DNA of 39,407 bases from Escherichia coli (GTDB lineage: Bacteria > Pseudomonadota > Gammaproteobacteria > Enterobacterales > Enterobacteriaceae): the NCBI RefSeq assembly GCF_016903815.1, contig NZ_CP069970.1, one strand, 5' to 3'. Below are positions 1,562 through 39,407 of the stretch, one piece after another (position 1 is the first letter of the stretch; each line of letters begins with the position of its first letter). Below the pieces are notes generated by a model. It did not search any database, had not been told where the DNA came from, and saw only the letters and a list, made by a program, of their open reading frames with translations. Made by a program: the position numbers and the translations under genes.

Positions 1562-1792
1562 ATGAGAACCGTATCGATATTTAAAAATGGCAACAACCGC
1601 GCCATCCGTCTGCCTCGTGATCTGGATTTTGAGGGGGTGAGCGAGCTCGAGATCGTCCGGGAAGGGGACAGCATCATCCTGCGCCCCGTCCGGCCAACCT
1701 GGGGATCATTCCTAGAGTACGAAAAAGCCGATCCAGATTTTATGGCGGAGCGCGAGGATGTTGTCAGCGACGAAGGGCGATTTAACCTGTGA
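1562..1792 (+). CDS. vapB: VapB/VagC-family antitoxin (AbrB/SpoVT-type)
   Basis: 76-aa protein MRTVSIFKNGNNRAIRLPRDLDF..., closely resembling plasmid VagC antitoxin. Its stop overlaps the start of the next gene (GTGA). Confidence 0.85.
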   Translation: MRTVSIFKNGNNRAIRLPRDLDFEGVSELEIVREGDSIILRPVRPTWGSFLEYEKADPDFMAEREDVVSDEGRFNL

Positions 1793-2205
1793 ACAAGACT
1801 TATATGCTTGATACCTGTATCTGCTCGTTCATCATGCGTGAACAGCCAGAAGCCGTCCTGAAGCGTCTGGAGCAGGCGGTGCTACGCGGCCACCGTATAG
1901 TGGTCTCGGCCATCACCTACTCTGAAATGCGCTTCGGGGCTACCGGCCCAAAGGCCTCACCACGTCACGTCCAACTGGTCGATGAATTCTGCGCCCGCCT
2001 CGATGCCATCCTGCCCTGGGATCGCGCCGCAGTAGACGCCACCACGAAGATTAAAGTGGCACTGCGGCTGGCCGGGACGCCGATCGGCCCGAACGACACG
2101 GCGATTGCCGGGCACGCCATCGCCGCCGGGGCGATACTGGTAACGAATAATACAAGAGAATTTGAGCGAGTGCCTGACCTGGTGCTGGAAGACTGGGTGA
2201 AGTAA
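1789..2205 (+). CDS. vapC: VapC/VagD-family PIN-domain toxin
   Basis: PIN signature: N-terminal MLDTCIC (Asp), internal acidic residues, C-terminal TNNTREFERV. GTG start overlaps the vapB stop by 4 nt. Confidence 0.85.
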   Translation: MNKTYMLDTCICSFIMREQPEAVLKRLEQAVLRGHRIVVSAITYSEMRFGATGPKASPRHVQLVDEFCARLDAILPWDRAAVDATTKIKVALRLAGTPIGPNDTAIAGHAIAAGAILVTNNTREFERVPDLVLEDWVK

Positions 2206-2242: not shown

Positions 2243-2267
2243 AAACAGCCCGTATACGGGCTGTTTT
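2243..2267. terminator. hairpin AAACAGCCCG-TATA-CGGGCTGTTTT between convergent vapC and ATPase genes
   Basis: Perfect 9-10 bp stem with A-run upstream and T-run downstream, placed between two convergent gene ends (2205 and 2367). Confidence 0.6.
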
Positions 2268-2366: not shown

Positions 2367-4505
2367 TCAAGCGATACGGGCAACCGAGCTCTGGTTTGCT
2401 GCCGGTGGCAGGGCGATGAGCTTGTCACATTCCATAATCACGTACTCCGGGATGAGATCGAATCTGGACGGATCTAGTTGACAGATGAACTCATTTTCAA
2501 TGTGGTACGTTTCGTTAACGAATTTTCGTATTACCGGATGGTCCTGATCCAGTTCCAGTAAACGGAATACCTGCAGTTTTTCATAGCCGTTACGACAGCG
2601 ACGGTACAGGTTTTTTATTTCATCTGGGCTGCTGACGAGAGCCTGAAGTCGCGGGTAATCAAAACTGTCCACATACTCCCGGATATCCCGCAAGGCCTGC
2701 TGAATTTTCTCAGGAGCCATTTTGGGATAGCCCGAGCCCGCAGCGGCAGGCTCGCGATAATCCAGCGGGGCGACGCGTCGATGGAATAGATTGGATAGAA
2801 GCTGATAAGCATCACCACGTTCGTCAACGATTTCAAAGTAGCGACGAAGATAGATGAGCTTAATGATCTCCTCACAGTCTGCTGACGCGGTGATGGATTT
2901 GCAGATCTGCATGAATGTCATGATATCGCCGTCGTTAACAGGTAATTCTTCTATGACTCCAGCAGACAGGCGCAGGCAGGAGGCGGTCACCTGATTACTG
3001 AACAACCTTCTGACTGACTTCAGCGTGTCAATCACAGGCTCCACGTCATGCGTCAGCATAAGTACAGTCCGGTTCTTCAGGCATTCACCACTTGCACGTC
3101 TGAACAGCATTTCAAGAATGGCAAACTTCTTGTTTTTATCAAAAGAAGATATGGGATCATCAAGGATAATCAGTCCCGGGTTTTTTGACAGGCATTCATA
3201 CATGAATAACACAATCGCAAAGGCGTTCCGTTCTCCATAGCTGAGATGCTGGCTACCGCCGCTGACGTACCCGTCAAAATCTATGTGTCGTAGCCTGAGT
3301 TTTCTCTGCTCTCCCTCGCCGGCTATATCCACCCTGTATTTATAGCCTGCATAAGTGAGGAAATTATTGATGTTTGTTTTGTGCTGTGCGATCAGCCGGA
3401 TCATGCTGTCCCGGTGCCGGTTAATTTTTCCCTGCAGCGGTCCGGCAAGGTTTATCAGGTCCATAAGGGCCGCGTTCAGTCTGTCGGTGATCCCCTGCAT
3501 GAGTTCGGATTGCAGATCAGGGAAGAACTGCAGGTCAATCAACCTGGCAGTGAGCACCTCCCGAACGTTCTGCTGTTCCTGCAGGCTGAAAACATTCAGG
3601 CCTCTCAGCGCAGTGAGTTTCTCTGTCAGCGTATCGGTCTGGCGTTTCAACGCCACTAGGTACTCGATATGTTCGGCTTCCGGACCGTTCTGAAGCATAG
3701 TAATGGCCAGAAGGCGTTCTCTGGCGCTCTCCGTCAGGTAATTACCGAGGTTTTCCACCAGTCTGATGATAGCGGTCAGGTTTTTAATGGTGGATTTATC
3801 GTATTCCTCTCTGACTTGGCGAATTTGTGCTTCCTTTCCCGTGATATCACCGGTACAGAACGGACAGCAGCCATCCGAAAGGGGCGAAAACTCGAGTCCC
3901 TTTGTCTGCCAGTCAATCCATTCCACGCGGCGTTCACTGCGGATGTAGGGTTGATAGTTCTCAAGACCAGCCGGAATGTGGTGTATTTTATTTCCGCCTG
4001 ACAGACCTCTCATGCCGGTTGAAGAACGTGAAATCCCGGAACTGGTTGATTTGAAAGCATTACTGAGTTCCTGTAGATGGTCTATCAGAGAGTTCAGCTC
4101 AGTGTGATCCGTGAAAACAGCCCGGATCTTTTGCGTCATTTCTTCTATTTCACGCTCTCTTTCCGCATGGGCTTGATTGCGGATAAGAATATTAAAGCTG
4201 TCACTGATGAGCTCGTCCGGTTGGAACGTAAACTGACTGACGTACTCCTCGTTGAAGCACATCACGTCCCCAATCCCGTCAGCACCGATGACAATGGGCC
4301 CGGTGCTATCGGGGTTTTCTCCGCGCAGCCGGAAGGGCATCAGTGCCTGTAGTCCCTGAATGTCGTCCCGCGCCGCACAGCTTATGGCCCGTGACAGCGT
4401 ACTTTTTCCAGTACCATTTGGCGCAAACTTAATGTTCAGTTTATCGGCAGTGAGGGTGATATGTGCTCGTACGATGTTATTGCAGTGGCGTATTTCAATG
4501 TCCAT
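2367..4505 (-). CDS. ABC-type ATPase with coiled-coil zinc hook (AAA_13 family; RloC/PrrC-like candidate)
   Basis: 712 aa. Walker A FAPNGTGKST (aa 27-36), CCPFC zinc-hook-like motif inside a long predicted coiled-coil insert, ABC signature-like LSYGERN, Walker B LIILDDP, H-loop LTHD. C-terminal region has R-x3-E (LRRYFE) followed by His (LFHRR), reminiscent of the PrrC/RloC anticodon-nuclease triad. Confidence 0.6.
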   Translation of the reverse strand: MDIEIRHCNNIVRAHITLTADKLNIKFAPNGTGKSTLSRAISCAARDDIQGLQALMPFRLRGENPDSTGPIVIGADGIGDVMCFNEEYVSQFTFQPDELISDSFNILIRNQAHAEREREIEEMTQKIRAVFTDHTELNSLIDHLQELSNAFKSTSSGISRSSTGMRGLSGGNKIHHIPAGLENYQPYIRSERRVEWIDWQTKGLEFSPLSDGCCPFCTGDITGKEAQIRQVREEYDKSTIKNLTAIIRLVENLGNYLTESARERLLAITMLQNGPEAEHIEYLVALKRQTDTLTEKLTALRGLNVFSLQEQQNVREVLTARLIDLQFFPDLQSELMQGITDRLNAALMDLINLAGPLQGKINRHRDSMIRLIAQHKTNINNFLTYAGYKYRVDIAGEGEQRKLRLRHIDFDGYVSGGSQHLSYGERNAFAIVLFMYECLSKNPGLIILDDPISSFDKNKKFAILEMLFRRASGECLKNRTVLMLTHDVEPVIDTLKSVRRLFSNQVTASCLRLSAGVIEELPVNDGDIMTFMQICKSITASADCEEIIKLIYLRRYFEIVDERGDAYQLLSNLFHRRVAPLDYREPAAAGSGYPKMAPEKIQQALRDIREYVDSFDYPRLQALVSSPDEIKNLYRRCRNGYEKLQVFRLLELDQDHPVIRKFVNETYHIENEFICQLDPSRFDLIPEYVIMECDKLIALPPAANQSSVARIA

Positions 4506-4653
4506 TTATCTGTCCTTTGCCAGTTATTCCGGGGGGATTCATATCCTGCCGCAAAATGTGCCCGCATGCTGTGATGCAGATACATAATACATTTCGTTTA
4601 TACCATTGCTTACACCTCTCCGAGATGTTCATATCAGAAACAAAGATTAGGTC

Positions 4654-17857: not shown

Positions 17858-19341
17858 TGGCCAGAAGTTGCGTAACGGATCCACGTTGGCGCGAGCTGGT
17901 GGCGCTATATCGTTATGACTGGATTGCTGCCGCTGATGTTTTGTTCGGCAAAACACCTACCTGGCAGCAGGATCTGATTATTGAGTCTGTGCAGGAACAG
18001 GGTAGCAAGACATCTGTTTCGTCTGGTCACGGTACCGGGAAATCAGACATGACTTCTATCATGATCATGTTGTTCATAATCATGTATCCCGGTGCCCGCG
18101 CCATTATCGTTGCGAACAAAATTCAGCAGGTAATGACCGGTATATTCAAGTACATCAAGATAAACTGGGCTACTGCCACCAGCCGTTTTCCATGGCTTGC
18201 TGATTATTTTGTTCTGACAGAAACCGCTTTCTATGAGGTTACTGGTAAAGGTGTATGGACTGTAGTACCGAAGGGCTTTCGTCTGGGAAGTGAAGAAGCT
18301 CTCGCCGGTGAACACGCAGATCATCTTCTGTATATTATCGATGAAGCCTCCGGTGTCAGTGATAGAGCTTTCGGTATCATCACCGGTGCTCTTACCGGAC
18401 AGGATAACCGCATCTTATTGCTGTCACAGCCTACACGCCCAAGCGGCTATTTCTACGATACACACCATAAACTGGCCAAGCGTCCTGGTAACCCTGATGG
18501 CGTTTATACGGCGATCACGCTTAACAGTGAGGAATCACCGTTGGTAACGCCAGCATTTATCAAAATGAAGCTGGCGGAGTACGGCGGGCGTGATAACCCT
18601 ATGTACATGATTAAGGTACGCGGCCTATTCCCTAAATCACAGGATGGCTTCCTTCTTGGACGTGATGAGGTTGAACGTGCAACGCGGCGGAAAGTCAAGA
18701 TTGCCAAAGGATGGGGCTGGCTTGCATGTGTGGACGTTGCTGGTGGTACGGGACGGGATAAGTCCGTTATCAATATCATGATGGTGTCCGGCCAGCGAAA
18801 TAAACGCCGTGTAATCAACTATCGAATGCTGGAATACACAGACGTTACAGAAACGCAGCTTGCCGCCAAAATTTTCGCAGAATGTAATCCTGAGCGATTC
18901 CCAAATATCACCATAGCGATAGACGGCGATGGCCTGGGTAAAGCAACGGCGGATCTGATGTACGAGTATTATGGTATTACCGTACAGCGTATACGCTGGG
19001 GTAAAAAGATGCATAGCCGTGAAGATAAGAGCCTGTACTTTGATAAACGTGCTTATGCCAACGTTCAAGCCGCAGAGGCCGTAAAATCTGGTCGTATGAG
19101 ACTGGATAAGGGTAATGAAACTATTGAGGAAGCGTCGAAAATCCCTGTAGGGATTAACTCCGCAGGTCAATGGAAGGTGATGAGTAAGGAGGATATGAAG
19201 AAAAAACTCAACCTGCACTCACCAGACCATTGGGATACATATTGTTTCGCTATGCTGGCGGATTATGTTCCCCAGGATGAAGTGCTTAGCGTCGAAGACG
19301 AAGCGCAGGTTGATGAAGCTCTGGCATGGCTTAATGAATGA
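17857..19341 (+). CDS. pacB: terminase/pacase large subunit PacB
   Basis: 494-aa ORF translationally coupled to pacA; terminase-like ATPase region. Confidence 0.9.
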
Positions 19342-19344
19342 ATA

Positions 19345-19361
19345 TTTGCTCTAATAAATTG
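19345..19361 (+). promoter_or_regulatory. C1 operator-like site TTTGCTCTAATAAATTG at the pacB 3' end
   Basis: 15/17 match to the C1 operator consensus, 4 nt after the pacB stop and ~190 bp upstream of the c4-like RNA. Confidence 0.5.
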
Positions 19362-19544
19362 TGTTTTTTAACTACCGATGTTACATTGAGCCTGACCTCT
19401 TGCGCCTTGAGGCATTTTCGGTTTATGCTTATCAGGCACCTCATTAAAACGGGTGCCGGGATTGGCCTCCCGCTTAAGTCTAAGGCGATACAGACGCCGC
19501 TCGCGTCTTTTTTTTGTATCGGCGTACACGCACACCTCTACAAT

Positions 19545-19624
19545 GGTGGGCTGTATGGGGCTACCTTCGGGTAGGCTGGTTACCTTGGACGCCAGTAAGG
19601 CCAACTCCGTACAGTCCACCGCCA
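19545..19624 (+). ncRNA. c4: C4-like antisense RNA (tRNA-like acceptor stem with 3' GCCA)
   Basis: 11-bp closing stem GGTGGGCTGTA (19545-19555) pairs with TACAGTCCACC (19610-19620) with one G-U, followed by GCCA. Internal UUCG-tetraloop hairpin CTACC-TTCG-GGTAG. Candidate -10 TACAAT at 19539-19544. Size ~77-80 nt. Internal boxes are complementary to repeated target boxes on both sides. Confidence 0.55.
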
Positions 19625-19628
19625 GCAA

Positions 19629-19672
19629 GATTGGTCTCTTCTGCGGTGGTTACATACCAACGTCTAAGGAGG
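19629..19672 (+). promoter_or_regulatory. icd leader with antisense target boxes (GATTGGTCTC and CGTCTAAGG overlapping the AAGGAGG Shine-Dalgarno)
   Basis: Box CGTCTAAGG (19661-19669) is complementary to RNA segment CCTTGGACG (19583-19591); box TTGGTCT is complementary to RNA AGGCCAA (19598-19604). A second copy of both boxes lies upstream at 19460-19485. Confidence 0.45.
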
Positions 19673-19680
19673 CTGCCAAT

Positions 19681-19902
19681 ATGGCTACTATCCCTACCCC
19701 AACTCATCCTGAATTTATCTGGCGCTTTTACTCCTGCCAAAAACGTCACTATCACTTCGTTATTGCACCGACAGAAGATGAGGCCCGCTCTCAGCTTCCT
19801 GACGCCCCATGTATTTTCTCTGCCCGTTTTTCCACTGATTCACGCAATTCTCTCAGTTACTGGTGCCTCCCTGTTAACGCTTCTGCTCAGGAGGGACTAT
19901 GA
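19681..19902 (+). CDS. icd: Icd-like cell-division inhibitor (73 aa)
   Basis: Strong SD TAAGGAGG 8 nt before the ATG; 73 aa MATIPTPTHPEFIWRFYSCQKRHYHFVIAPTEDEARSQLPDAPCIFSARF... with an Icd-like motif; stop overlaps the next start (ATGA). Confidence 0.6.
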   Translation: MATIPTPTHPEFIWRFYSCQKRHYHFVIAPTEDEARSQLPDAPCIFSARFSTDSRNSLSYWCLPVNASAQEGL

Positions 19903-21017
19903 GAACGTCATTAGTCACCCGTGAAGAGATGATCGAGGCAATTGAACAGCACACTGCCTGTATCAGTACCAGGGATATACCAGGCGTTATTGCCAACTAC
20001 TTCATGATCACCAAACAACTTTACCGGAGAAAGGACAAGAACGCGGTTCACCGTATCCTGTTGTCTGATATCCGCGAATACCTGCTCGAACAGGGTCATC
20101 TGAATTACGCAACCGCCGCAGCCGAAGCACGCAAGGAGGCACACAGAATGAAAGCAACTAACGTTAAATCAGAAAAAATTCATGCACCTTCAGTTCAAGA
20201 ATCGGAGCTGGTGGTTGTTCAGAATCAGTCTGATGAAATTCCCGTTCTGGAATGGCAGGGAGTGCGTGTAGTGACAACCGAGACTCTTGCTAGAGGGTAT
20301 GGGACAGAAACAATCCGTATTCGCCAAAATCATCATGAGAACAAAGTACGCTTTGTTGAAGGGAAGCACTTTTTCAAAGTTGAAGGAGAATCATTGCGCG
20401 AGTTGAAGCACAGAGTAGCTTTAAACTACTCTGTAAAAATTGCTCGCAATGTTCGCTCACTCACCCTCTGGACAGAACGCGGCGCAGCCCGCCACGCTAA
20501 AATGCTCGAAACCGATCAGGCATGGGCATTCTTTGAAAAACTGGAAGACAGCTACTTCCGACAAAAAGAACAGCAACCGATCGCAATCCCCCAGACGCTT
20601 CCTGAAGCCCTACGCCTGGCTGCCGAACTGGCTGAACAAAAGCAACTTCTGGAACAGAAAGCCCACCAGCTAAATCAGCAGCTGGTGGCCGCCGCTCCTA
20701 AAGTCGATTTTGCCGACCGGGTATCAGTAGCTAAAGGGATCCTGATTGGGAATTTTGCAAAGGTTGTTGGACTTAAACAAAACGCGCTGTTTGTCTGGTT
20801 ACGGGAGAACGGCATCCTGATAGCGTCCGGTGGACGTAAAAATGTGCCGTTCCAGCAGTACATCAACGCGGGGTATTTCACGGTGAAAGAAGTGGTGCTG
20901 GATGATGAAGATGGCTACCAGATACGGTTGACGCCTCAATTAACGGGTAAAGGCCAGCAGTGGTTGACGCGTAAACTGCTCGATGCTGGCTTGTTAAAAC
21001 CGGTGGCGGCTGAATAA
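19899..21017 (+). CDS. ant: antirepressor Ant (N-terminal ORF6N/KilA-N-like domain + C-terminal KilAC/ANT domain)
   Basis: 372 aa (~42 kDa) with an in-frame internal Met near aa 83 that would give a ~32 kDa product, like P1 Ant1/Ant2. LEWQGVRVVTTETLARGYG... is ORF6N-type; the C-terminal AAPKVDFADRVSVAKGILIGNFAKVVG... is ANT/KilAC-type. Confidence 0.7.
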   Translation: MRTSLVTREEMIEAIEQHTACISTRDIPGVIANYFMITKQLYRRKDKNAVHRILLSDIREYLLEQGHLNYATAAAEARKEAHRMKATNVKSEKIHAPSVQESELVVVQNQSDEIPVLEWQGVRVVTTETLARGYGTETIRIRQNHHENKVRFVEGKHFFKVEGESLRELKHRVALNYSVKIARNVRSLTLWTERGAARHAKMLETDQAWAFFEKLEDSYFRQKEQQPIAIPQTLPEALRLAAELAEQKQLLEQKAHQLNQQLVAAAPKVDFADRVSVAKGILIGNFAKVVGLKQNALFVWLRENGILIASGGRKNVPFQQYINAGYFTVKEVVLDDEDGYQIRLTPQLTGKGQQWLTRKLLDAGLLKPVAAE

Positions 21018-27593: not shown

Positions 27594-28030
27594 GTTTTCT
27601 CTCCAGCCTGTGCCAAGGCTTCAACTTCCAAATCGTAAGACTCAAACTCATAGTCCTGGTCGTCAACTTCTTCAGGCACTGGCAGTAAATGCCAGGCTGA
27701 GTATATCTGACCATTATCAAAACGCTCCTGGCTGTAGAGCGTCGCGGCTATGAGTGTTAGCGCCGGGCGGTCATAACGGTAAATTTTGCGAACGTCACGG
27801 TCAACGAGACGACCGAAATTACCATAACCGCGCTCCAGTAATAATTTTTTAATTTCCGGCCAGTATGGGCCATAGCTGCGGTACAGGCGGGGATTTTTCA
27901 GTAATCGCCCGCGTAGCCCTGACAGGAAGAAATCAACGTATTCGTCTTCTGTCTTTCCTAACAATGCCGTACGCAGTACCGCCTCAAGATATGTTTTATT
28001 CGGTTTTATTGTATCAGATAGTGTGGCCAT
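27590..28030 (-). CDS. ulx: Ulx (upstream of lxc)
   Basis: 146-aa ORF between lxc and darB, as in P1. Confidence 0.7.
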   Translation of the reverse strand: MATLSDTIKPNKTYLEAVLRTALLGKTEDEYVDFFLSGLRGRLLKNPRLYRSYGPYWPEIKKLLLERGYGNFGRLVDRDVRKIYRYDRPALTLIAATLYSQERFDNGQIYSAWHLLPVPEEVDDQDYEFESYDLEVEALAQAGEKT

Positions 28031-28063
28031 ATTATGCGACGCCCGGCGAACCGGGCGCTCCTG

Positions 28064-31000
28064 TTATGCGTATTGTTGGATGACGGCCAGAACGTCCGCC
28101 ACGTTGTGTTTTGTCTCGATAATCCACCAGTTACCCGGGAAATCGCTGTTCTTCGCCTTCGCTGGCAGCCAGCGAGCGCCGAATTTCGCCTTGATTGCGT
28201 CTTTCGCACGGAAAAGAACGCCTTTCATGCCTGAGGCTTCCTGAAGCCCAAATACCTCGCCAGCGGCGAATTTTGGTGCGTACATCATCTTCAGGTCGGC
28301 GGTGGATACGCGATAATTCAGACCAAGAGACTGAGCTATGCTGGTGGCATCACCCTGTATTGATGATAACTCTTCTTGTTTCTCGTTTCTGGCGGCAATT
28401 TCTTCCTCCGTGATGTTGCCAAGGGCCAGGTTTATCCGATCAGCGTCGGCCTGTTTCTCTTCATCGGTGCGTCCGGCAAGAACCGTGTTAACTCTCTGCA
28501 ATATCTCCACATGATTCTTGCGCATGCTGAGCAATTCCGGCGTAACCTCGTTAAGATCCACCAGCCCAAGGATGGCAAGGTCGGAAAACATTGATACCAG
28601 GTTGTAGGTCATGCGATAGCTGAGTTGACCATAGGCTGATGGCAACTTCACCGCATCCATTTGATAGGCATCCATAAATTTAGAGCCGTCGTTTACGACA
28701 TCCGCAATTGCCGGTGTGATTTTTCCTGTGGTGGCGGCCTCCCTGATTGCTGTTACCCACGATTGAGTCAGCGCGGCGACTGCATGATTCAGATTGGCTT
28801 TCCGTTCTGCTGCAATGCGCGCACTTGCTGCGTCCATTGCCTGCTTGATCTCGTCTTTATTGCTGTAAATGCCAATGGTGCCAAACTGTGCTGTGGTGAT
28901 CTCATAATCTGACGCCCGGAACTCATGGGTACCGAAAATGGCATTGGTGACCTCAAGTTCAGAATCCCCGTTACGAGTAGCCCCCTGGCTTGTTTTCTCC
29001 GGCATTTTTGCGATCGCATCCGCTATTTTCTCCTGAATTGCTTCAGGGGATAGCGTATCTCCGTATGACGCGATTACATCGCCATAATTGGAGCCAAACA
29101 ATTCAACCAGGAATGTTTCTGCCGAACGGATCTGGCGGTTATTCCCTTCCGACATCATACCAAGCACCCATTTTGCAATTGACGACTTCAGCGCGCCGTC
29201 ACGGCGATCCGGGTAAACCGCATGCTTCAGTGGGTCCGTATAGGTGCCAACAAAATCAATGCTATAGCCTGACTCTGTAGTCTGAACGCCGTATGAGTCA
29301 GTGATTTTGATCATGCCGCGCTGCTGGAAACGGTAGAAATCGTCACAGGAAATGATGTCGTTAATCCCGGCGATGGAGACGCCACCACTGATTTTCTGCA
29401 TAACAGCATCTTCATCGGGAGTTACATCCACCTGTTTATCCAGCGTCTTCACATCCCAGTTACCCGATTTGGTGCCTTTGAAGGTAAAGATGATCTCCAC
29501 GTCTGCGCGCTGGCTGTCGAAGTCCAGCGACTTAATGCGAACGATATCACCGGCACAATCATAGTATTGGCCTACACGCCATGAGCGATCGCCGATAACA
29601 AGGAACTCATTCGCATGGTTAACCAGATCAGGATCAACATCCAGAATGCCTTTATTTATTGCATCCTCCACCAGCGGGCGCAGGCGTTTGATATCCGTCG
29701 CGGCCTTCTGAGTACGGTTCAATAATTTCTCATAGCGGGAGATGGCCTGAGAGATATTAGCCTTGCGCTGAATGGCGCTTTTCAACGACGCGCGATACTG
29801 TGCTAACAACATACGGTCTGTGTGATGGACGCTACCCCAGCGGGCTTTCCAGTCTGCGTTATCAGCTGCTTTGGCCATTACCGCCTGTTTGAATTTGGCG
29901 ACGTCGGCGGTGGTCTTTTCAAGTTCCGCTTTGCTTCGCTCCAATTCAGCGGTAAGTACCTCCACATCCTCACCAGCTGCGTGCTGCGCCTTGATGTAGT
30001 TCTGAAGGTCGATAGTAGCCTGTTCTTTCTGGCGAGCGCGTTTCGCAGCTTTCGCCTTATCCATTTGAACCTGCATCATTACCAGACGTTCGCCATCATC
30101 CTTAGCGGTATACATCTGCATTTCGATCATATCGTTGGCGTCGGCGTTCTCCATTTCTGACTTATCTGAACGGAGGATATCGGAGATCCAGCCTGCTTTA
30201 CGCTTCAGCGTCTTCAGTCGGTATTCATCGAAAGAACCCTTGCCGCAGTAGTAATGAACGCGAACGCTTGCACGGTTGGAGCCAACTCGAGCACCGCGAC
30301 CGTTACGCTGTGCGATACTGGCTGGTGTCCATGGCAACGTCAGATGATGGATGTCAGTCGTTCCTCGATGCAGGTTGATACCCACCTCTGCCTTTTTGTT
30401 GCAGATGATGATCGGAGTCCGGCCCTCCTGGAAGTCGGCTGCAATCTTTTCCAGACCGCCCAACGACATTTCATTTTGCTGCGCGATATAGGCGTCATAC
30501 AGAGCCATTTGCTCGTTGTATTTCGCTATCTGTGCATCTGTTGGTTCATCCGGTAACTCTTTCGGCGGTTTAACCGCTTTCAGTTTCTTACCGGTTTTAC
30601 CTGCCTCGGCAACCGTCTGAGCATTCAGGATCCCCACCTTTGAAGGTTCAAGGTTAAGAGCATTGCAGATAATGCGCTTGAGCTTCTGGTGCTGCGTTTT
30701 TTCGTCCGTGAAGATGATTTGCTTACCTTCCGGGAAAAACGCCTTCAGCGTGGCGATCAGCTTCGCGTATTTGGGTGTAACGGGGTGAGTTACGGTCTGT
30801 TCGTCAATGCCAAACTTGGCCAGGCGATTATTCACTTCCTGCTCAAATGCTTCCGGTACCTGCAACTGAATAAACTCGCCCTTATCTATCAGGGAGTATT
30901 GCGATTGCTGCGTGATCGAATCATCACTGTCGTCGTCTTCGCTGGTGGCTTGTTTAGGCAAACTGTCCGCCAGCTGCTGCACCGCATCGGCGTACTCCGG

Positions 31001-34000
31001 CAGGAAACGATAGGTGATCCTGCGATAGTACAGGTCCATGTCAGTACATACGCGGTCCATATCCCTGATTATTGAGAAGATCGGACGGGCTTTCTCGTGC
31101 TCAATCACGCCGTCTTCATTGACCGAGGTCGTTACGCCATTGTTGGCTTTGGCTGCCGCTTCCGCCTGCTGACGCAATTCTTCATACGCCGCCAGTTGTT
31201 CTTCCGTAAGTGGTGCATCCTGCTGGTGTTCGTCCAGTTCCGGGATCTCCACGGTATCCTTAACGTCTTCCGCCGTTTTAAGCGTTGTCCAGCGATGGAA
31301 TATGCCGCGCAGCGCATCAAGGTTTTCAAAGCCCACCAGCGCCATTTTTTCTTCAACTTCACCGCTGATTTTCTGTACCGTTTCCAGCCTGGTCTTGCCG
31401 AAGAATTTAACGAAGTCATCAGGACCGTAGATCCCCATCTTCTGCCAGTATTCCTTCGGCAGCACATGAGAAAGCATGTTGTATGCATCGATCGGGGTGT
31501 TAACGACTGGCGTTGCAGTCAGGAGAACCGGTCCGCGCCCACCATTCTTTTTCATCAGGTACGCGTTTTTAATTGCCATATCCCGCGCCGATTGCGCCAC
31601 CGCGCTGGTGGGCAGATAGGCCAGTTGTGACGCTTCGCGACCATTTTTATAGCTATTGCGGTAGTTGTGACCTTCGTCAGCGATCACACTATCGAAGCCC
31701 ATATCCTCAAAGTACGGATACTTCTCTGCTTTTTCGGTGCCGGTATCTGAATACTCCGACAATACCCGGCGACGCGCGGCCTCTTTGCGGTGGGAGTCGG
31801 AGTCCATTGCGCTGGCTACGCGCCCGGCGGCAACGAAGTCATAAAGCATATCCTGTGCATGCTCATCTACGGTGTCATCACGTAGCGGAATGCGGGCGTA
31901 TTGTTCTTTGGTAAACACGACTGCACGGTAATTTGAGTGCGGGATCGCGTTCATCCGCGCCGTGATAGTGGCTTCATCTGCCAGTTTTAGGGCATCGCGC
32001 ATAACTGGAGTGCCATCAGTACCAAGAACAGGTTTACCGTTCTCATCGAGCACCGGCACCTGGCGAATCTGATCGCCATCCATCAGCACATCAAGACCGA
32101 CGAACAGGTAGTTACTGAATGCCTCTTCACTCAGGAATTCTTTTGCTTCGTAATACCAGTTTTCCAGCACTGATTTAGGCACTACATACGCAGTACGGGT
32201 GGAGCGACCGTTCTCATAGTTGAACGCCTCAAGCGCCAGCGCGGTCGTAGTTTTACCCAGCCCGGTGCCGAAGCCCAGGATGCCGCGCCCATCTTCGGAC
32301 AGTCGGCGCACTTCGCTATTCTGGTAATCAAATGGCTGGCGCTTACCGCTTAATCCCTTCAACCCAAGCGGATCGCCAGAGTGTTCATACGGGATATTGC
32401 TATTGAACACATCGTTGTATTTGGCAACCAGTTCATCGTAGCGATCGTGCGTCTTGATCCACTTATTGAACTGGTCCTCAAGCAGTGCCATCTGCTCGCG
32501 GTAGCCGTTCGCCGTCGCGCTATCTTTGCCACCGATACGCGCACCATTGAGATACTTTTCCAGCTGTGCCGGGAACCCGGTCGCGTTTTCACCTGATTTA
32601 CGGTCCCACTCGTAGCGGATCTCGCCTGTTTCTTTATCCTTGCGCTGGACGACACCGTATCGGTGCCCGACGAACAGGCCATCACCACCGTGATAGGTGT
32701 CAGAAACCATTTCGTCGCCTTCCAGCTGCACTGACTGCACATAGCGCAGATCCGGATAGCCGTTTTCCTGCAAAAACTCCAGAATGACGGAGCGGTCGAA
32801 CCAACGGCTATTGAGCTTAAAGCGGATATTCTCTGCTGGCGTCTTGATGCGCTTCTCTTCGATCGCTGCCAGCTGATTAAGGACGTTGTTCTTTACTGGA
32901 CCGTCGGGGAGTGTGGCAAGGAATTCCTGTTTTGGAGCCACTATCTCGTTAATGTCGCCGCTGGTGGCGCGGGCGAACGGAACAATCCCGCCATACGGAG
33001 AAACCGCAATACCAGGAGTGCTGGCCAATAAATTAAGCAACTCTTCATCACTGGCTGGCAGTTCGCCGGTAAACGCAAGGCGGAAATCATCGAGCTGGAT
33101 TGGATCGCGGGTAAGATCGCTATAGAGATAACGCAGGGTGTCCTGATAGCTGGTGGAGTCATAACTGGCGCTGGAATCATGCGTAACCAGCTTTCCTGTT
33201 AGCTCGTCAGAAATAGTGCCATCCAGCTTAATTGCACCACGGAAAGCAAACCAGGCGCGCGCACCGCTTCCCGATAATTTAGCTATCGGACCGCGACCGG
33301 GGTTACCAAAACGGTCAATCTCTGCCTGCAAACGGGACACCAGAGAAAGGCGCTGCTGTTCGATTTGTTCAGCACTATGCCCGGCGGCCTTCATATCCTG
33401 ATATTCAATTAACATCCGGCCAATCATCGCCCCACGATACAAGCGTTCACGGTATTTTTCAGGCTGGCTGTTAATCCAGTCCACCAGCTGCACCATATCG
33501 TCGCTGATTGATGTGGTGTACTTATCGCGGACATTTGCCATCTGGGTAAATGTCATACCGAGACGGCCTTCTGTTGTAGTCAGGTTACGCTGAAGAGCCT
33601 CCCAGCTATCCGCGCCATAACTGGCAGCATCAATCTTAAGCTCCTTACCAGCATCAGCTTCAATCCAGCGACCACCAGCATATTTTTGCCATACGCCATT
33701 AATCAGGCGCATTTCCCCTTCATCAACAACATCTGCGGTCGGTGACGGTTCAGCCATATCGAGCAAAGACCAGTCGATACGACTTTCGAAACGATGAATC
33801 AGCTTCGCTTTAAGAGCCTGGTTATCAATCTGACCGTCGGCACGAACCTCAATACGCCCCTGGAAGCCCTTTTCCTGGGTGCCATGAACAAACCGGCGGC
33901 CATCCTTTTCAAACCACTTGCCAGAAATAAACGTTGGCCAAAGCACATTTGCCGATTCAAGAGTGCTTTCATCCACCAGGGGGATTTTCTCAGCCATCTC

Positions 34001-34897: not shown

Positions 34898-36628
<1,731 letters not shown>

Positions 36629-37903
36629 ACGGCAAACATTCCCAATTCACAGAGTCCGACCTAAACCACATGAAGCGGCTTAGGAATTACAGACTCTCCA
36701 AGGGCTAACACTGCCAGCCCGGCAGCTTTTATATTACGGGCCGCGTTAATATCACGATCATGCTCTGCGCCACATTCCGGGCAGTGCCATTTACGAATAT
36801 TAAGAGGCATTTTTTGCATGGTGAAGCCGCAACTGCTGCAACGTTTGGAAGAAGGGAAATACTGGTCGATAGCGACAATGCTACGTCCACCCCATTCTCC
36901 TTTGTACTGGAGTTGGCGTACAAGTTCGCTCCAGCCTGCGTCAGCTATTGCTTTAGACAGCTTCGGGTTACGGATCATGTTTTTCACTTTAAGGGATTCG
37001 ACGCAAACAACTTGGTTTTCGTTAATCAGTTTGCGGGACAACTTATGCAGGTTATCCATCCGACAATCGACTATTCTCGCGTGGAGGCGGGCAACCTTTA
37101 AACGTGCTTTGGCGCGGTTCTTTGAGCCTTTTTGTTTCTTGCTCAATCTGCGCTGTAACACTGCTAATCGCTTCGCGTATTTAGCGTTGTGTCGAGGATT
37201 GCCAGTTTTAAAACCGGTATCGGTGACGAACAAATCTTTTAAACCAATATCAATGCCGACCGTGGAAACGGTGATCGGCAGTGATACAGGCTCAAACTCG
37301 CAGAGACAGGATACAAAATATCGTCCGGCAGCATCCCTGGTGATAGTGACAGTGGATGGAGCAGACGGCAACGGACGGCTCCAGCGAACATCTAACGGCT
37401 CTTTGCTCTTTGCCATGTACAGCTTGCCGTCACGGTATTTAAATGCGCTGGCAGTTAGTTCTGCGGCCTGTTTATGCCGCTTGCTCTTAAAAACTGGGTA
37501 TGCAGCACGCCCGGCGAAAAAGTTAGCAAAAGCCGTTTGTTGGTGGCGCAGAGACTGCTGGAGGGGGACGCAGGAAACGTCATTCAGCCAAGCGAATTCT
37601 GGTTCTTTTTTCAGTGCCGTTAATTTGGCGCTGGCTTGTGCATAGCCGACCCTCTCATGGCGTGCGTAGTACGCATCGGTGCGCCAGCGAAGGAGGCTGT
37701 TATAGACAAAACGCACACACCCAAAAGTCCGGGCTAATAGCTCGGTTTGTTCGGGAGTTGGATAGAATCGATATTTATAGGCACGCTTCATGTTCTATAT
37801 AATACATTGAAACTAATGAGTATATAAATGAATACACGGACGAAAATGTTATCAAAGCCAATATACCAACAGACATTAGGTAAGGTAGCTGGAGGGCAAT
37901 ATA
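36629..37903 (-). mobile_element. IS200/IS605-family element carrying only tnpB (IS1341-type), boundaries approximate
   Basis: tnpB fills the whole prt-pro intergenic interval; no tnpA present; exact ends not determined. Confidence 0.5.
36661..37791 (-). CDS. tnpB: TnpB (OrfB) RuvC-like RNA-guided nuclease
   Basis: 376 aa. RuvC-I GIDIGLKD, Glu in VVCVESLK, zinc finger CSSCG...CPECG, RuvC-III HDRDINAARNI. Confidence 0.85.
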   Translation of the reverse strand: MKRAYKYRFYPTPEQTELLARTFGCVRFVYNSLLRWRTDAYYARHERVGYAQASAKLTALKKEPEFAWLNDVSCVPLQQSLRHQQTAFANFFAGRAAYPVFKSKRHKQAAELTASAFKYRDGKLYMAKSKEPLDVRWSRPLPSAPSTVTITRDAAGRYFVSCLCEFEPVSLPITVSTVGIDIGLKDLFVTDTGFKTGNPRHNAKYAKRLAVLQRRLSKKQKGSKNRAKARLKVARLHARIVDCRMDNLHKLSRKLINENQVVCVESLKVKNMIRNPKLSKAIADAGWSELVRQLQYKGEWGGRSIVAIDQYFPSSKRCSSCGFTMQKMPLNIRKWHCPECGAEHDRDINAARNIKAAGLAVLALGESVIPKPLHVV

Positions 37904-38923
37904 ATGACTGATGTTTTGAAAACGGTCACTGACCGCTTTTGTCTCTATAGCAATGCTCGAAAAGGTCGCCAGAACGGGCGACAGTATGTATTAAGCGCGG
38001 TTAAGACCATGCTTGAAAGCAAGGAAACTCAGGAAGGTTTACGCCTTGGAGAGCTTTTCGGCTATTACGGTCACGGTCGCCGACAGCTGACCGGCAAACT
38101 GGAAGTACCAGAAACCAGCGTAATCATGGTGGAAGGTCGCCCGGTCGTAATCGACAATGTTCCAGCGTGCCGCACAGTGGCTATATCCGTTGACGACAAC
38201 GGCATCGTTACCCATACACAGGAAATTCTTAACACAGAGCCGGGTAAAATTGTCGCCGCGATGATCGAAAGCCGAGCTGGTGGCTGGAGCTGGGCCACTG
38301 GCGGGCGTGAGTCCGGGAAAATCGCTGTAACCACCAGCTTCCATGGTGTGGATTATGTGACAACGCCGAACTATATCAGTCTGGATCATCCTGCCAGCGC
38401 CGGAATGTTTGAAAGCGCGGATTCTAAATCTTTACTGGCAGAGTCCCTGGCGGCGCATGGGTACTCCGACGAGTCAGTGCAGGCCGTTATATCCCATTAC
38501 GGCAAAATGGCTGAACTGGAAATGATGGTGGAGGCGACAGAGCGTACGGCAGAACTGGAAACTGCACTACTCGAAAGCCAGGGCCGCCACCTCGAAGCAA
38601 TGGCCAAGATCGCAGATGCTGAAGCGCGAATCGCTTTGCTGGAGGAAACAGCGGGTATCCGCGACGATGTGCTGGCAGCAATGCAAGACGAACTGGATAA
38701 CCTCCCGATCTTCGTCTCCGCCGCCCAAAAAGACGCATTCCGCCTCAAAGAACCTGGTGATGCAAAAATCGTTGCCACACTTTTCGAATCTCTGATCAAA
38801 GTTGGCGCACGCAACTTGCCTGTCACCAAGAAAATTAAGGAGGTTCCGCAAGCGGCTAACGTCCAGGCACCGCGTGAGACAAGCATCATCACGTTTAATA
38901 ATTCAATCAATCCGTTTAAATAA
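37904..38923 (+). CDS. pro: head processing protease Pro
   Basis: 339-aa ORF with SD GGAGGG; N-terminal protease-like region and C-terminal coiled-coil (scaffold-like); position after prt as in P1. Confidence 0.65.
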   Translation: MTDVLKTVTDRFCLYSNARKGRQNGRQYVLSAVKTMLESKETQEGLRLGELFGYYGHGRRQLTGKLEVPETSVIMVEGRPVVIDNVPACRTVAISVDDNGIVTHTQEILNTEPGKIVAAMIESRAGGWSWATGGRESGKIAVTTSFHGVDYVTTPNYISLDHPASAGMFESADSKSLLAESLAAHGYSDESVQAVISHYGKMAELEMMVEATERTAELETALLESQGRHLEAMAKIADAEARIALLEETAGIRDDVLAAMQDELDNLPIFVSAAQKDAFRLKEPGDAKIVATLFESLIKVGARNLPVTKKIKEVPQAANVQAPRETSIITFNNSINPFK

Positions 38924-38934
38924 CCACCAAAAAT

Positions 38935-38962
38935 AACCCCGGCAGCTGCCGGGGTTCTCGTT
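38935..38962. terminator. palindrome CCCCGGCAGCTGCCGGGG flanked by A-run and T-rich run, after pro
   Basis: Perfect 18-bp palindrome between the pro stop (38923) and the stop of a convergent minus-strand ORF (38968). Confidence 0.6.
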
Positions 38963-38967
38963 AACTA

Positions 38968-39222
38968 TTATCGCCTTCGTGCCATATATTTGCGCACCGC
39001 GCGGCGTGGACAATCTGAAGCGGTTTCTTTCTGCTGCATCAATCTCGCAGCCATGCTCAAAAATGTCAGGCACAGCCGAAGCCCGGCATACAATAGCGGT
39101 TCCAGTGGCCACGTCTCATTGAGCACATATACCGCCATGAAAATCGAGTCAAAAACTATCGCCGCCAGCGATAACTTCATTGTCGAAAGTCGGCGGAGCT
39201 GCCGGAGTTTATTCATTGACAA
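38968..39222 (-). CDS. small membrane protein with two hydrophobic helices (holin-like)
   Basis: 84 aa with two TM-like segments (LSLAAIVFDSIFMAVYVL; LLYAGLRLCLTFLSMAARL); convergent with pro and separated from it by the terminator. Confidence 0.35.
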   Translation of the reverse strand: MSMNKLRQLRRLSTMKLSLAAIVFDSIFMAVYVLNETWPLEPLLYAGLRLCLTFLSMAARLMQQKETASDCPRRAVRKYMARRR

Positions 39223-39407
39223 GCCCCGTCAGGCAAAGCTGGCGTTCTTTTTCACGGCGAATCTTTAAACCTCGCAGGGGCACGCCGTTACTGTTCACGA
39301 AATCAGGGAGATGGTTACACATATTCACCCATTCCCCTTTCTGCGCCCACTTGTGGATGGACGTTTCTACTCGCATGCCTCGCGCTTTGCTGTAGTAGGT
39401 CCGTAAG

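What the first reader, a model, noticed from the sequence alone, without database searches (positions are those of the whole stretch)
38935..39222. Convergent holin-like small ORF immediately after pro, separated by a perfect palindromic terminator
After pro there is an 18-bp perfect palindrome with flanking A and T runs, and then a minus-strand 84-aa ORF with two hydrophobic helices. In canonical P1 I expect lydA/lydB/darA after pro; the strand and size here do not obviously match what I recall, so the region downstream of pro may also be rearranged in this element.
Basis: partly seen in the sequence, partly recalled or inferred. Interest (0 to 1): 0.3.

Follow-up and report, generated by a model that had tools for sequence, protein, structure and literature searches.

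The report
Standard P1 pinholin gene lydD
The small membrane-protein ORF after pro is the known phage P1 pinholin gene lydD, ended by a shared terminator hairpin in exactly the canonical P1 layout, so the finding is ordinary and nothing is rearranged.

Summary
Window 38600-39407 is collinear with phage P1 (AF234172 19710-20523, 98.3% identity).

The ORF is lydD. Its conserved start is the ATG at 39216, giving 82 aa. The listed 84 aa comes from a window-specific TTG two codons upstream. The protein is identical to P1 LydD except for a 6-bp in-frame deletion that leaves 3 of the 5 C-terminal arginines. This is a common allele, with the exact sequence on at least 926 public contigs.

LydD has been shown experimentally to act as a pinholin for the SAR endolysin Lyz (PMC9025707).

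The palindrome (38935-38956, 22 bp perfect) is a canonical intrinsic terminator for the lyz-lydD transcript. On the pro strand it is only a hairpin, without a U-tract.

The annotated overlapping ORF lydE runs through this hairpin and shows no protein-level constraint.

Verdict: already known, low interest.

The parts
37904..38923 (+). pro (head processing protein), the last gene of the rightward prt-pro late unit
   Evidence: 339-aa ORF. It is annotated Pro in P1 and in vB_EcoM-673R5 at the homologous position. It matches phrog_1801 at E=8e-185.
38925..38956 (-). Intrinsic terminator of the lyz-lydD transcript. The hairpin is 38956->38935 (9-bp stem, 7 G-C pairs, 4-nt loop), followed by AUUUUUGGUG (38934->38925). 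On the + strand the same hairpin follows pro but has no U-tract.
   Evidence: Perfect 11+11 inverted repeat. The terminator scan hits on the minus strand only. Hairpin energy is -18 kcal/mol in the + strand fold; z-scores are -3.3 (+) and -2.6 (-). The stems are invariant in P1, P7, SJ46 and Ro157c2, while a loop base varies.
38968..39216 (-). lydD, the pinholin gene. It encodes 82 aa from the conserved ATG. The mechanical ORF extends to a non-conserved TTG at 39222. The protein has two transmembrane segments and a basic C-terminus ending in RRR.
   Evidence: Identical to P1 LydD (AAQ13988) at all aligned residues apart from two missing C-terminal Arg. phrog_21930 holin, E=1.1e-57. The exact 82-aa sequence is on at least 926 public contigs. 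Against JK004 there are 32 synonymous and 10 non-synonymous codon differences in this frame.
38971..38980 (.). Site of a 6-bp in-frame deletion relative to P1. One copy of an imperfect CGCCTT/CGCCTG tandem is lost, shortening the LydD Arg tail from 5 to 3. The placement is ambiguous within the repeat.
   Evidence: Alignment with P1. The same deletion is in vB_EcoM-673R5, which is 100% identical here. Alleles with 4 Arg also exist (SJ46).
38903..39112 (-). ORF corresponding to P1 lydE (GTG start, 69 aa). It is read in another frame of the lydD 3' half, runs through the terminator hairpin, and extends 21 nt into the pro 3' end. It is probably not a functional gene.
   Evidence: Annotated as LydE 'putative antiholin' in P1. 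P1 versus JK004 gives 2 synonymous and 22 non-synonymous differences in this frame, like the third frame (4/20). The frame is stopped after 40 codons in JK004. Removing lydE from the cloned lyz operon had no effect on lysis (PMC9025707).
39209..39407 (-). 3' end of lyz (SAR endolysin), cut by the window edge. Its stop overlaps the lydD start by 8 nt (ATGAATAA).
   Evidence: The last 65 codons translate identically to the P1 Lyz C-terminus. Pfam Phage_lysozyme scores 20.5 bits, below the 22.3-bit cutoff, on this fragment; phrog_7 endolysin gives E=4e-16. The P1 annotation shows the same 8-nt overlap.

Best explanation
This is the distal end of the phage P1 lyz-lydD late lysis operon, converging on the end of the prt-pro head-gene unit.

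Inferred from P1: late in the lytic cycle the Lpa-dependent promoter LPlyz transcribes lyz and lydD leftwards. LPlyz lies beyond the right edge of the window.

Shown by sequence: the lydD start overlaps the lyz stop by 8 nt, which suggests translational coupling.

From the literature: Lyz is a SAR endolysin that is exported and held inactive in the inner membrane. LydD, a small two-TMD protein with a basic cytoplasmic tail, accumulates in the membrane and acts as a pinholin. It depolarises the membrane and so releases and activates Lyz. It cooperates with the unlinked LydA/LydB/LydC proteins (PMC9025707).

Inferred from structure: the 9-bp G+C hairpin plus U-tract, 11 nt after the lydD stop, ends this transcript. 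On the other strand the same hairpin follows pro and may weakly stop or stabilise that transcript.

The allele here differs from reference P1 only in having 3 instead of 5 terminal arginines, a common natural variant. The overlapping lydE ORF is most likely an unconstrained alternative-frame ORF.
For: - Collinear alignment with P1 at 98.3% identity, and 100% with vB_EcoM-673R5.
- The P1 annotation gives pro / lydE / lydD / lyz in the same order, on the same strands, with the same overlaps.
- The LydD protein is identical to P1's apart from the loss of two Arg.
- phrog_21930 holin at E=1e-57.
- Hydropathy shows two TMDs and a basic tail.
- LydD is conserved next to lyz in Cronobacter phage JK004 (87% identity), and next to a lysozyme in Aeromonas phage 56 (36% identity).
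- The substitution pattern shows purifying selection in the lydD frame only.
- 494 plasmids carry the gene, 468 of them at 99% identity or more.
- Terminator scan and fold; the stems are conserved while the loop varies.
- Experimental pinholin evidence for P1/P7 LydD (PMC9025707).
Against: - No experiment was done on this 3-Arg allele.
- The promoter and most of lyz lie outside the window, so operon integrity in this element cannot be seen.
- The nearly identical 673R5 record has a frameshifted lyz about 180 nt beyond the window edge.
- The + strand side of the hairpin lacks a U-tract, so 'bidirectional terminator' is only half supported.
- Pfam gives only a sub-threshold DUF7940 hit for LydD.
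Confidence: 0.93

Rival explanations
1. The region downstream of pro is rearranged relative to canonical P1, and the ORF is a foreign or novel holin-like gene.
For: The element does carry an IS insertion just upstream at the prt/pro junction and a non-P1 immunity module elsewhere.
Against: The stretch aligns end to end with P1 and 18 other P1-like phage records at 96.7-100% identity. The P1 annotation has the same gene order. lydA/lydB/darA are at 27.9-31.2 kb in P1.
Confidence: 0.01
2. lydE (38903..39112, minus strand) is a real antiholin or antipinholin gene that is translated from read-through transcripts and modulates LydD.
For: It is annotated 'putative antiholin' in P1 and by NCBI in many plasmids. 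The ORF is open in P1-like elements, including this one.
Against: P1 versus JK004 gives 2 synonymous and 22 non-synonymous differences in its frame, and the frame stops after 40 codons in JK004. Natural alleles show radical changes (Cys->Arg, Lys->Glu) and variable ends. The Cys->Arg change corresponds to the hairpin loop base. Codons 50-58 are the terminator hairpin and U-tract, and the stop codon lies beyond the terminator, inside pro. There is no family hit. There is no hydrophobic segment (read directly from the sequence). Deleting it from the cloned operon had no effect (PMC9025707).
Confidence: 0.1
3. The palindrome is a protein-binding or recombination site rather than a transcription terminator.
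For: It is a perfect 22-bp palindrome with a PvuII-like CAGCTG centre. No terminator feature is annotated at this position in the stretch of the P1 record examined.
Against: The central base differs in P7 and Ro157c2 (CAGC->CGGC), which breaks the perfect palindrome while keeping the 9-bp stems. This is what a hairpin predicts, not a dyad-symmetric binding site. A U-tract follows immediately on the minus strand. The site sits exactly between two convergent stop codons, 11 nt from each. The whole element is absent downstream of lydD in JK004, where the neighbouring gene differs.
Confidence: 0.04

Closest known systems
Phage P1 LydD (AAQ13988.1; PHROG phrog_21930), pinholin of the lyz operon
   Same: The sequence is the same at every aligned residue. 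The position is the same: an 8-nt overlap with the lyz stop, convergent with pro. The downstream hairpin is the same, and so is the overlapping lydE ORF.
   Different: There are three instead of five C-terminal arginines, from a 6-bp deletion. A window-specific TTG lies two codons upstream of the ATG. There are three synonymous nucleotide changes within lydD.
Phage 21 S21-68 pinholin with SAR endolysin R21 (the lambdoid pinholin paradigm)
   Same: It works alike. Both are small two-TMD membrane proteins encoded next to a SAR endolysin. Each supports lysis with that enzyme but not with a canonical soluble endolysin. This comes from the function shown for LydD in PMC9025707 and from established knowledge of S21.
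   Different: Sequence similarity to S21 was not tested here. The gene order is reversed (endolysin first, pinholin second). P1 also carries a separate canonical holin/antiholin pair, LydA/LydB. No dual-start antiholin motif is conserved in lydD.
Cronobacter phage JK004 gene_112 and Aeromonas phage vB_AsaM-56 gp03 holin
   Same: Both are LydD homologues (87% and 36% identity) lying immediately downstream of, and overlapping, a lysozyme gene.
   Different: Their downstream neighbours differ. JK004 has a convergent gene in place of pro and no hairpin. Phage 56 has Rz-like spanin genes. The lydE frame is closed in JK004.

Membership tests
P1 LydD pinholin (phrog_21930) | Sequence homology to P1 LydD over the full length | tested here: met
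   Identical to P1 LydD apart from two missing C-terminal Arg. phrog_21930 at E=1.1e-57, covering profile positions 1-82 of 84.
P1 LydD pinholin (phrog_21930) | [quoted passage not shown] | tested here: met
   The lyz stop (39209-39211) and the lydD ATG (39214-39216) overlap by 8 nt. The visible 65-aa Lyz C-terminus is identical to P1's. Only the last 199 nt of lyz are in the window.
P1 LydD pinholin (phrog_21930) | Two transmembrane helices and a highly basic C-terminal tail | tested here: met
   Kyte-Doolittle peaks of 2.19 (residues ~15-32) and 1.61 (~41-56). The tail is CPRRAVRKYMARRR. It has 3 terminal Arg, against 5 in P1.
P1 LydD pinholin (phrog_21930) | Pinholin activity: it supports lysis by SAR endolysin Lyz but not by the canonical endolysin lambda R | not testable with these tools
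   Shown for the P1/P7 allele in PMC9025707. Not known for the 82-aa allele.
Rho-independent (intrinsic) terminator | G+C-rich stem-loop | tested here: met
   9-bp stem with 7 G-C pairs and a 4-nt loop; -18 kcal/mol.
Rho-independent (intrinsic) terminator | U-tract directly 3' of the stem | tested here: met
   Met on the minus strand (AUUUUUGGUG). Not met on the + strand (CUCGUUAAC), so the + strand use after pro is only a hairpin.
Rho-independent (intrinsic) terminator | Transcripts end there in vivo | not testable with these tools
   No transcript-end data were consulted.
LydE 'putative antiholin' as a protein-coding gene | Purifying selection in its own reading frame and an ORF kept open in relatives | tested here: not met
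   2 synonymous and 22 non-synonymous differences against JK004, and a stop after 40 codons there. Natural alleles have variable ends.
   In P1 these genes lie at 27904-31183, far to the right of pro. The ORF here aligns with lydD instead.

The most novel reading that the evidence does not exclude
The length of the LydD C-terminal arginine tract may be a slippage-prone timing dial. Tracts of 3, 4 and 5 Arg all circulate, arising from contraction or expansion of an imperfect CGCCTT/CGCCTG tandem. Such a dial could tune pinholin triggering, and so lysis time, among P1-like phage-plasmids. This would resemble the way C-terminal charge tunes lambda S timing. A related reading is that lydE is not a gene at all: its 3' half may simply be the terminator hairpin read in frame.
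Probability: 0.25. Interest if true: 0.2.

Novelty: already known. Interest (0 to 1): 0.05.

Why it matters
It matters little beyond correct annotation. The result confirms that this P1-like element keeps the canonical pro / lydD-lyz junction, so no rearrangement needs explaining. Two small points may be useful to annotators. First, lydD should be started at the ATG, giving 82 aa in this allele. Second, the widely propagated 'antiholin' label on lydE has no support from sequence conservation or from the published deletion experiment.

Tried and rejected
- The TTG start at 39222, which gives the 84-aa ORF, was rejected. That codon is TGG in P1 and TCG in JK004, while the ATG two codons downstream is conserved. 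The match to P1's 84 aa is a coincidence of +2 (TTG extension) and -2 (Arg deletion).
- Rfam gave nothing at gathering threshold in this region. There were only sub-threshold chance hits: Leu_leader at 20 bits and PK-repZ at 16 bits.
- Pfam gave only a sub-threshold DUF7940 hit for LydD and nothing for LydE.
- The P1 genome paper (PMC523184) could not be read because it is not held. I therefore could not check whether it lists this hairpin among predicted terminators. The P1 GenBank features in this stretch include no terminator.
- I considered whether lydD/lydE could be an overlapping Rz/Rz1-type spanin pair. This was rejected. PMC9025707 places the P1 spanins at mlp/ppfA, LydE has no lipobox or signal peptide, and its frame is unconstrained.
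- I did not use the large protein-database, structure-prediction or collection-scan tools, because the identity was already unambiguous.

Full report
**Observation**

The last 1.5 kb of the window holds these features:
- A 339-aa + strand ORF at 37904-38923.
- A perfect 22-bp palindrome, AACCCCGGCAG|CTGCCGGGGTT, at 38935-38956.
- A minus-strand ORF at 38968..39222, listed mechanically as 84 aa with a TTG start.

The palindrome sits 11 nt from each of the two convergent stop codons. Only two perfect palindromes of 18 bp or more exist in the whole window. First-order Markov simulations give a mean of 0.185 for 18 bp or more and 0.01 for 22 bp or more.

Kyte-Doolittle scanning of the ORF product shows two hydrophobic segments, about residues 15-32 and 41-56, and a strongly basic C-terminus.

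- The palindrome is 22 bp, not 18 bp.
- Only one homopolymer run flanks it. The A-run on the + strand is the U-tract of the minus strand.
- The 84-aa length is an artefact of the start-codon rule, as explained below.

**Identity**

Window 38600-39407 matches 19 P1-like phage records over its full length at 96.7-100% identity. This includes P1 itself (AF234172 19710-20523, 98.3%) and vB_EcoM-673R5 (100%).

The P1 record annotates this stretch as pro (+, 19014-20033), lydE (-, 20013-20228), lydD (-, 20078-20332) and lyz (-, 20325-20882). The late promoter LPlyz is at 20969-20987, and ssb follows. The convergent arrangement is therefore the canonical one.

- lydC-lydA-lydB-hdf-darA-ddrA-ddrB occupy 24.5-31.5 kb on the minus strand.
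- Within that block, darA to lydA span 27904-31183.
- This is well to the right of pro, beyond lyz, ssb, isaA, IS1, isaB and hxr.

**Details of lydD in this element**

The pairwise alignment with P1 shows seven substitutions in the aligned 528 nt and one 6-bp gap.

The gap removes one unit of an imperfect tandem, CGCCTT/CGCCTG, at about 38971-38980. The LydD C-terminus is therefore ...KYMARRR instead of ...KYMARRRRR.

The annotated P1 start corresponds to the ATG at 39216, giving 82 aa here. The TTG at 39222 that produced the 84-aa listing is TGG in P1 and TCG in Cronobacter phage JK004, so it is not a conserved start. The agreement with P1's 84 aa is a coincidence.

All other residues are identical to P1 LydD.

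Public data on the alleles:
- The exact 82-aa protein is on at least 926 contigs.
- The 84-aa form is on at least 1000 contigs.
- 83-aa (four Arg) alleles also exist.
- tblastn finds the gene in 494 PLSDB plasmids, 468 of them at 99% identity or more.

The protein matches PHROG holin family phrog_21930 at E=1.1e-57. In Pfam it gives only a sub-threshold DUF7940 hit.

The lyz stop and the lydD start overlap by 8 nt (ATGAATAA), as in P1. The 65 visible C-terminal residues of Lyz are identical to P1 Lyz.

**Function**

Bednarek et al. 2022 (PMC9025707) reported the following:
- The cloned lyz-lydD operon lyses E. coli faster than lyz alone.
- A P1 lydA lydD double mutant forms no plaques, whereas lydA and lydA lydC mutants do.
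- LydD does not support lysis when lyz is replaced by the canonical endolysin lambda R.

From this they concluded that LydD is a pinholin serving the SAR endolysin Lyz, and that it is accessory to the main holin LydA in liquid culture.

By identity, the gene here is the same function. The mechanism for this allele is inferred, not shown.

**Terminator**

The minus strand meets the canonical intrinsic-terminator pattern: a 9-bp stem with 7 G-C pairs, a 4-nt loop, then AUUUUUGGUG. The hairpin alone contributes about -18 kcal/mol, with z-scores of -2.6 and -3.3 against shuffles.

On the + strand the stem is followed by CUCGUUAAC. After pro it is therefore a hairpin without a U-tract, and the scan does not call it.

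Across P1, P7, SJ46 and Ro157c2 the two stem arms are invariant. A loop base changes (CAGC to CGGC in P7 and Ro157c2), which breaks the perfect palindrome but not the hairpin. This favours an RNA hairpin over a dyad-symmetric protein-binding site.

In JK004 the lyz-lydD pair is conserved, but the downstream neighbour is a different convergent gene and the hairpin is absent. The conserved module is therefore lyz-lydD.

**lydE**

The P1 record also annotates lydE ('putative antiholin'). Its counterpart here is 38903..39112 (GTG start, 69 aa). Several observations argue against it being a functional gene:
- It is read in another frame of the lydD 3' half. It continues through the hairpin, so that codons GSCRGYFWW are the stem-loop and U-tract. 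It ends 21 nt inside pro.
- Between P1 and JK004, codon differences in the overlap are 18 synonymous and 6 non-synonymous in the lydD frame. In the lydE frame they are 2 and 22. In the third frame they are 4 and 20.
- The JK004 lydE frame is closed after 40 codons.
- Natural lydE alleles show Cys->Arg (the loop base), Lys->Glu and varying C-termini.
- It has no family hit.
- Removing it from the cloned operon had no effect on lysis.

I conclude that lydE is probably not a functional gene.

**Context noticed in passing**

- The window is 99.9% identical over its last 25 kb to vB_EcoM-673R5.
- An IS200/IS605-family element is inserted exactly at the prt/pro junction. Its tnpB-like ORF is at 36661..37791 (-), and it is annotated ISEc42 in 673R5. 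The P1 homology breaks at 36613 and resumes at 37892. The insertion changes the Prt C-terminus and separates the normally overlapping prt and pro.
- Rfam finds isrK and C4 antisense RNA at 19436-19626, downstream of pacB. Icd/antirepressor-type genes lie there, as in RCS47 and JL22. P1 homology in that query ends with pacB.
- A second perfect palindrome (24 bp) lies at 2243-2266, between convergent ORFs.
- The 673R5 record has lyz split by a frameshift about 180 nt beyond the window edge. Its prt is also split, although prt is intact in the window, so sequencing error in that record is plausible.

**Verdict**

This is a known gene in its known place. The novelty class is 'already known' and interest is very low.

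Noticed in passing
window 36613-37892 (tnpB-like ORF 36661..37791, minus strand): An IS200/IS605-family element (annotated ISEc42 in vB_EcoM-673R5) is inserted exactly at the normally overlapping prt/pro junction. The Prt C-terminus changes from ...GNDND* to ...GNDIDNCPP*. pro acquires a new upstream sequence (GGAGGGCAATATAATG).
   Followed up: partly
window 19436-19626 (+): Rfam hits above gathering score to isrK (60.8 bits) and C4 antisense RNA (75.9 bits) lie just downstream of pacB. Icd/antirepressor-type genes are annotated there in 673R5, RCS47 and JL22. P1 homology in this query stops after pacB. This suggests an immunity-region variant different from reference P1.
   Followed up: partly
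window 2243-2266: A 24-bp perfect palindrome, AAACAGCCCGTATACGGGCTGTTT, lies between convergent ORFs (1789..2205 + and 2367..4505 -). It is likely another shared terminator hairpin.
   Followed up: no
L002 (ON470615.2) 4469-4517, about 180 nt beyond the right end of the window: In the nearly identical phage record vB_EcoM-673R5, lyz is split by a frameshift (...CPAG|YGLTGSVIHTG*). prt is also split there, although prt is intact in the window. This may be sequencing error. Whether lyz is intact in the window's element cannot be seen.
   Followed up: partly
window 38971-38980: The LydD C-terminal arginine tract is polymorphic in public data. 3 Arg (this allele) is on at least 926 contigs, 5 Arg (P1) on at least 1000, and 4 Arg in SJ46 and others. 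The variation is generated in an imperfect 6-bp tandem.
   Followed up: partly
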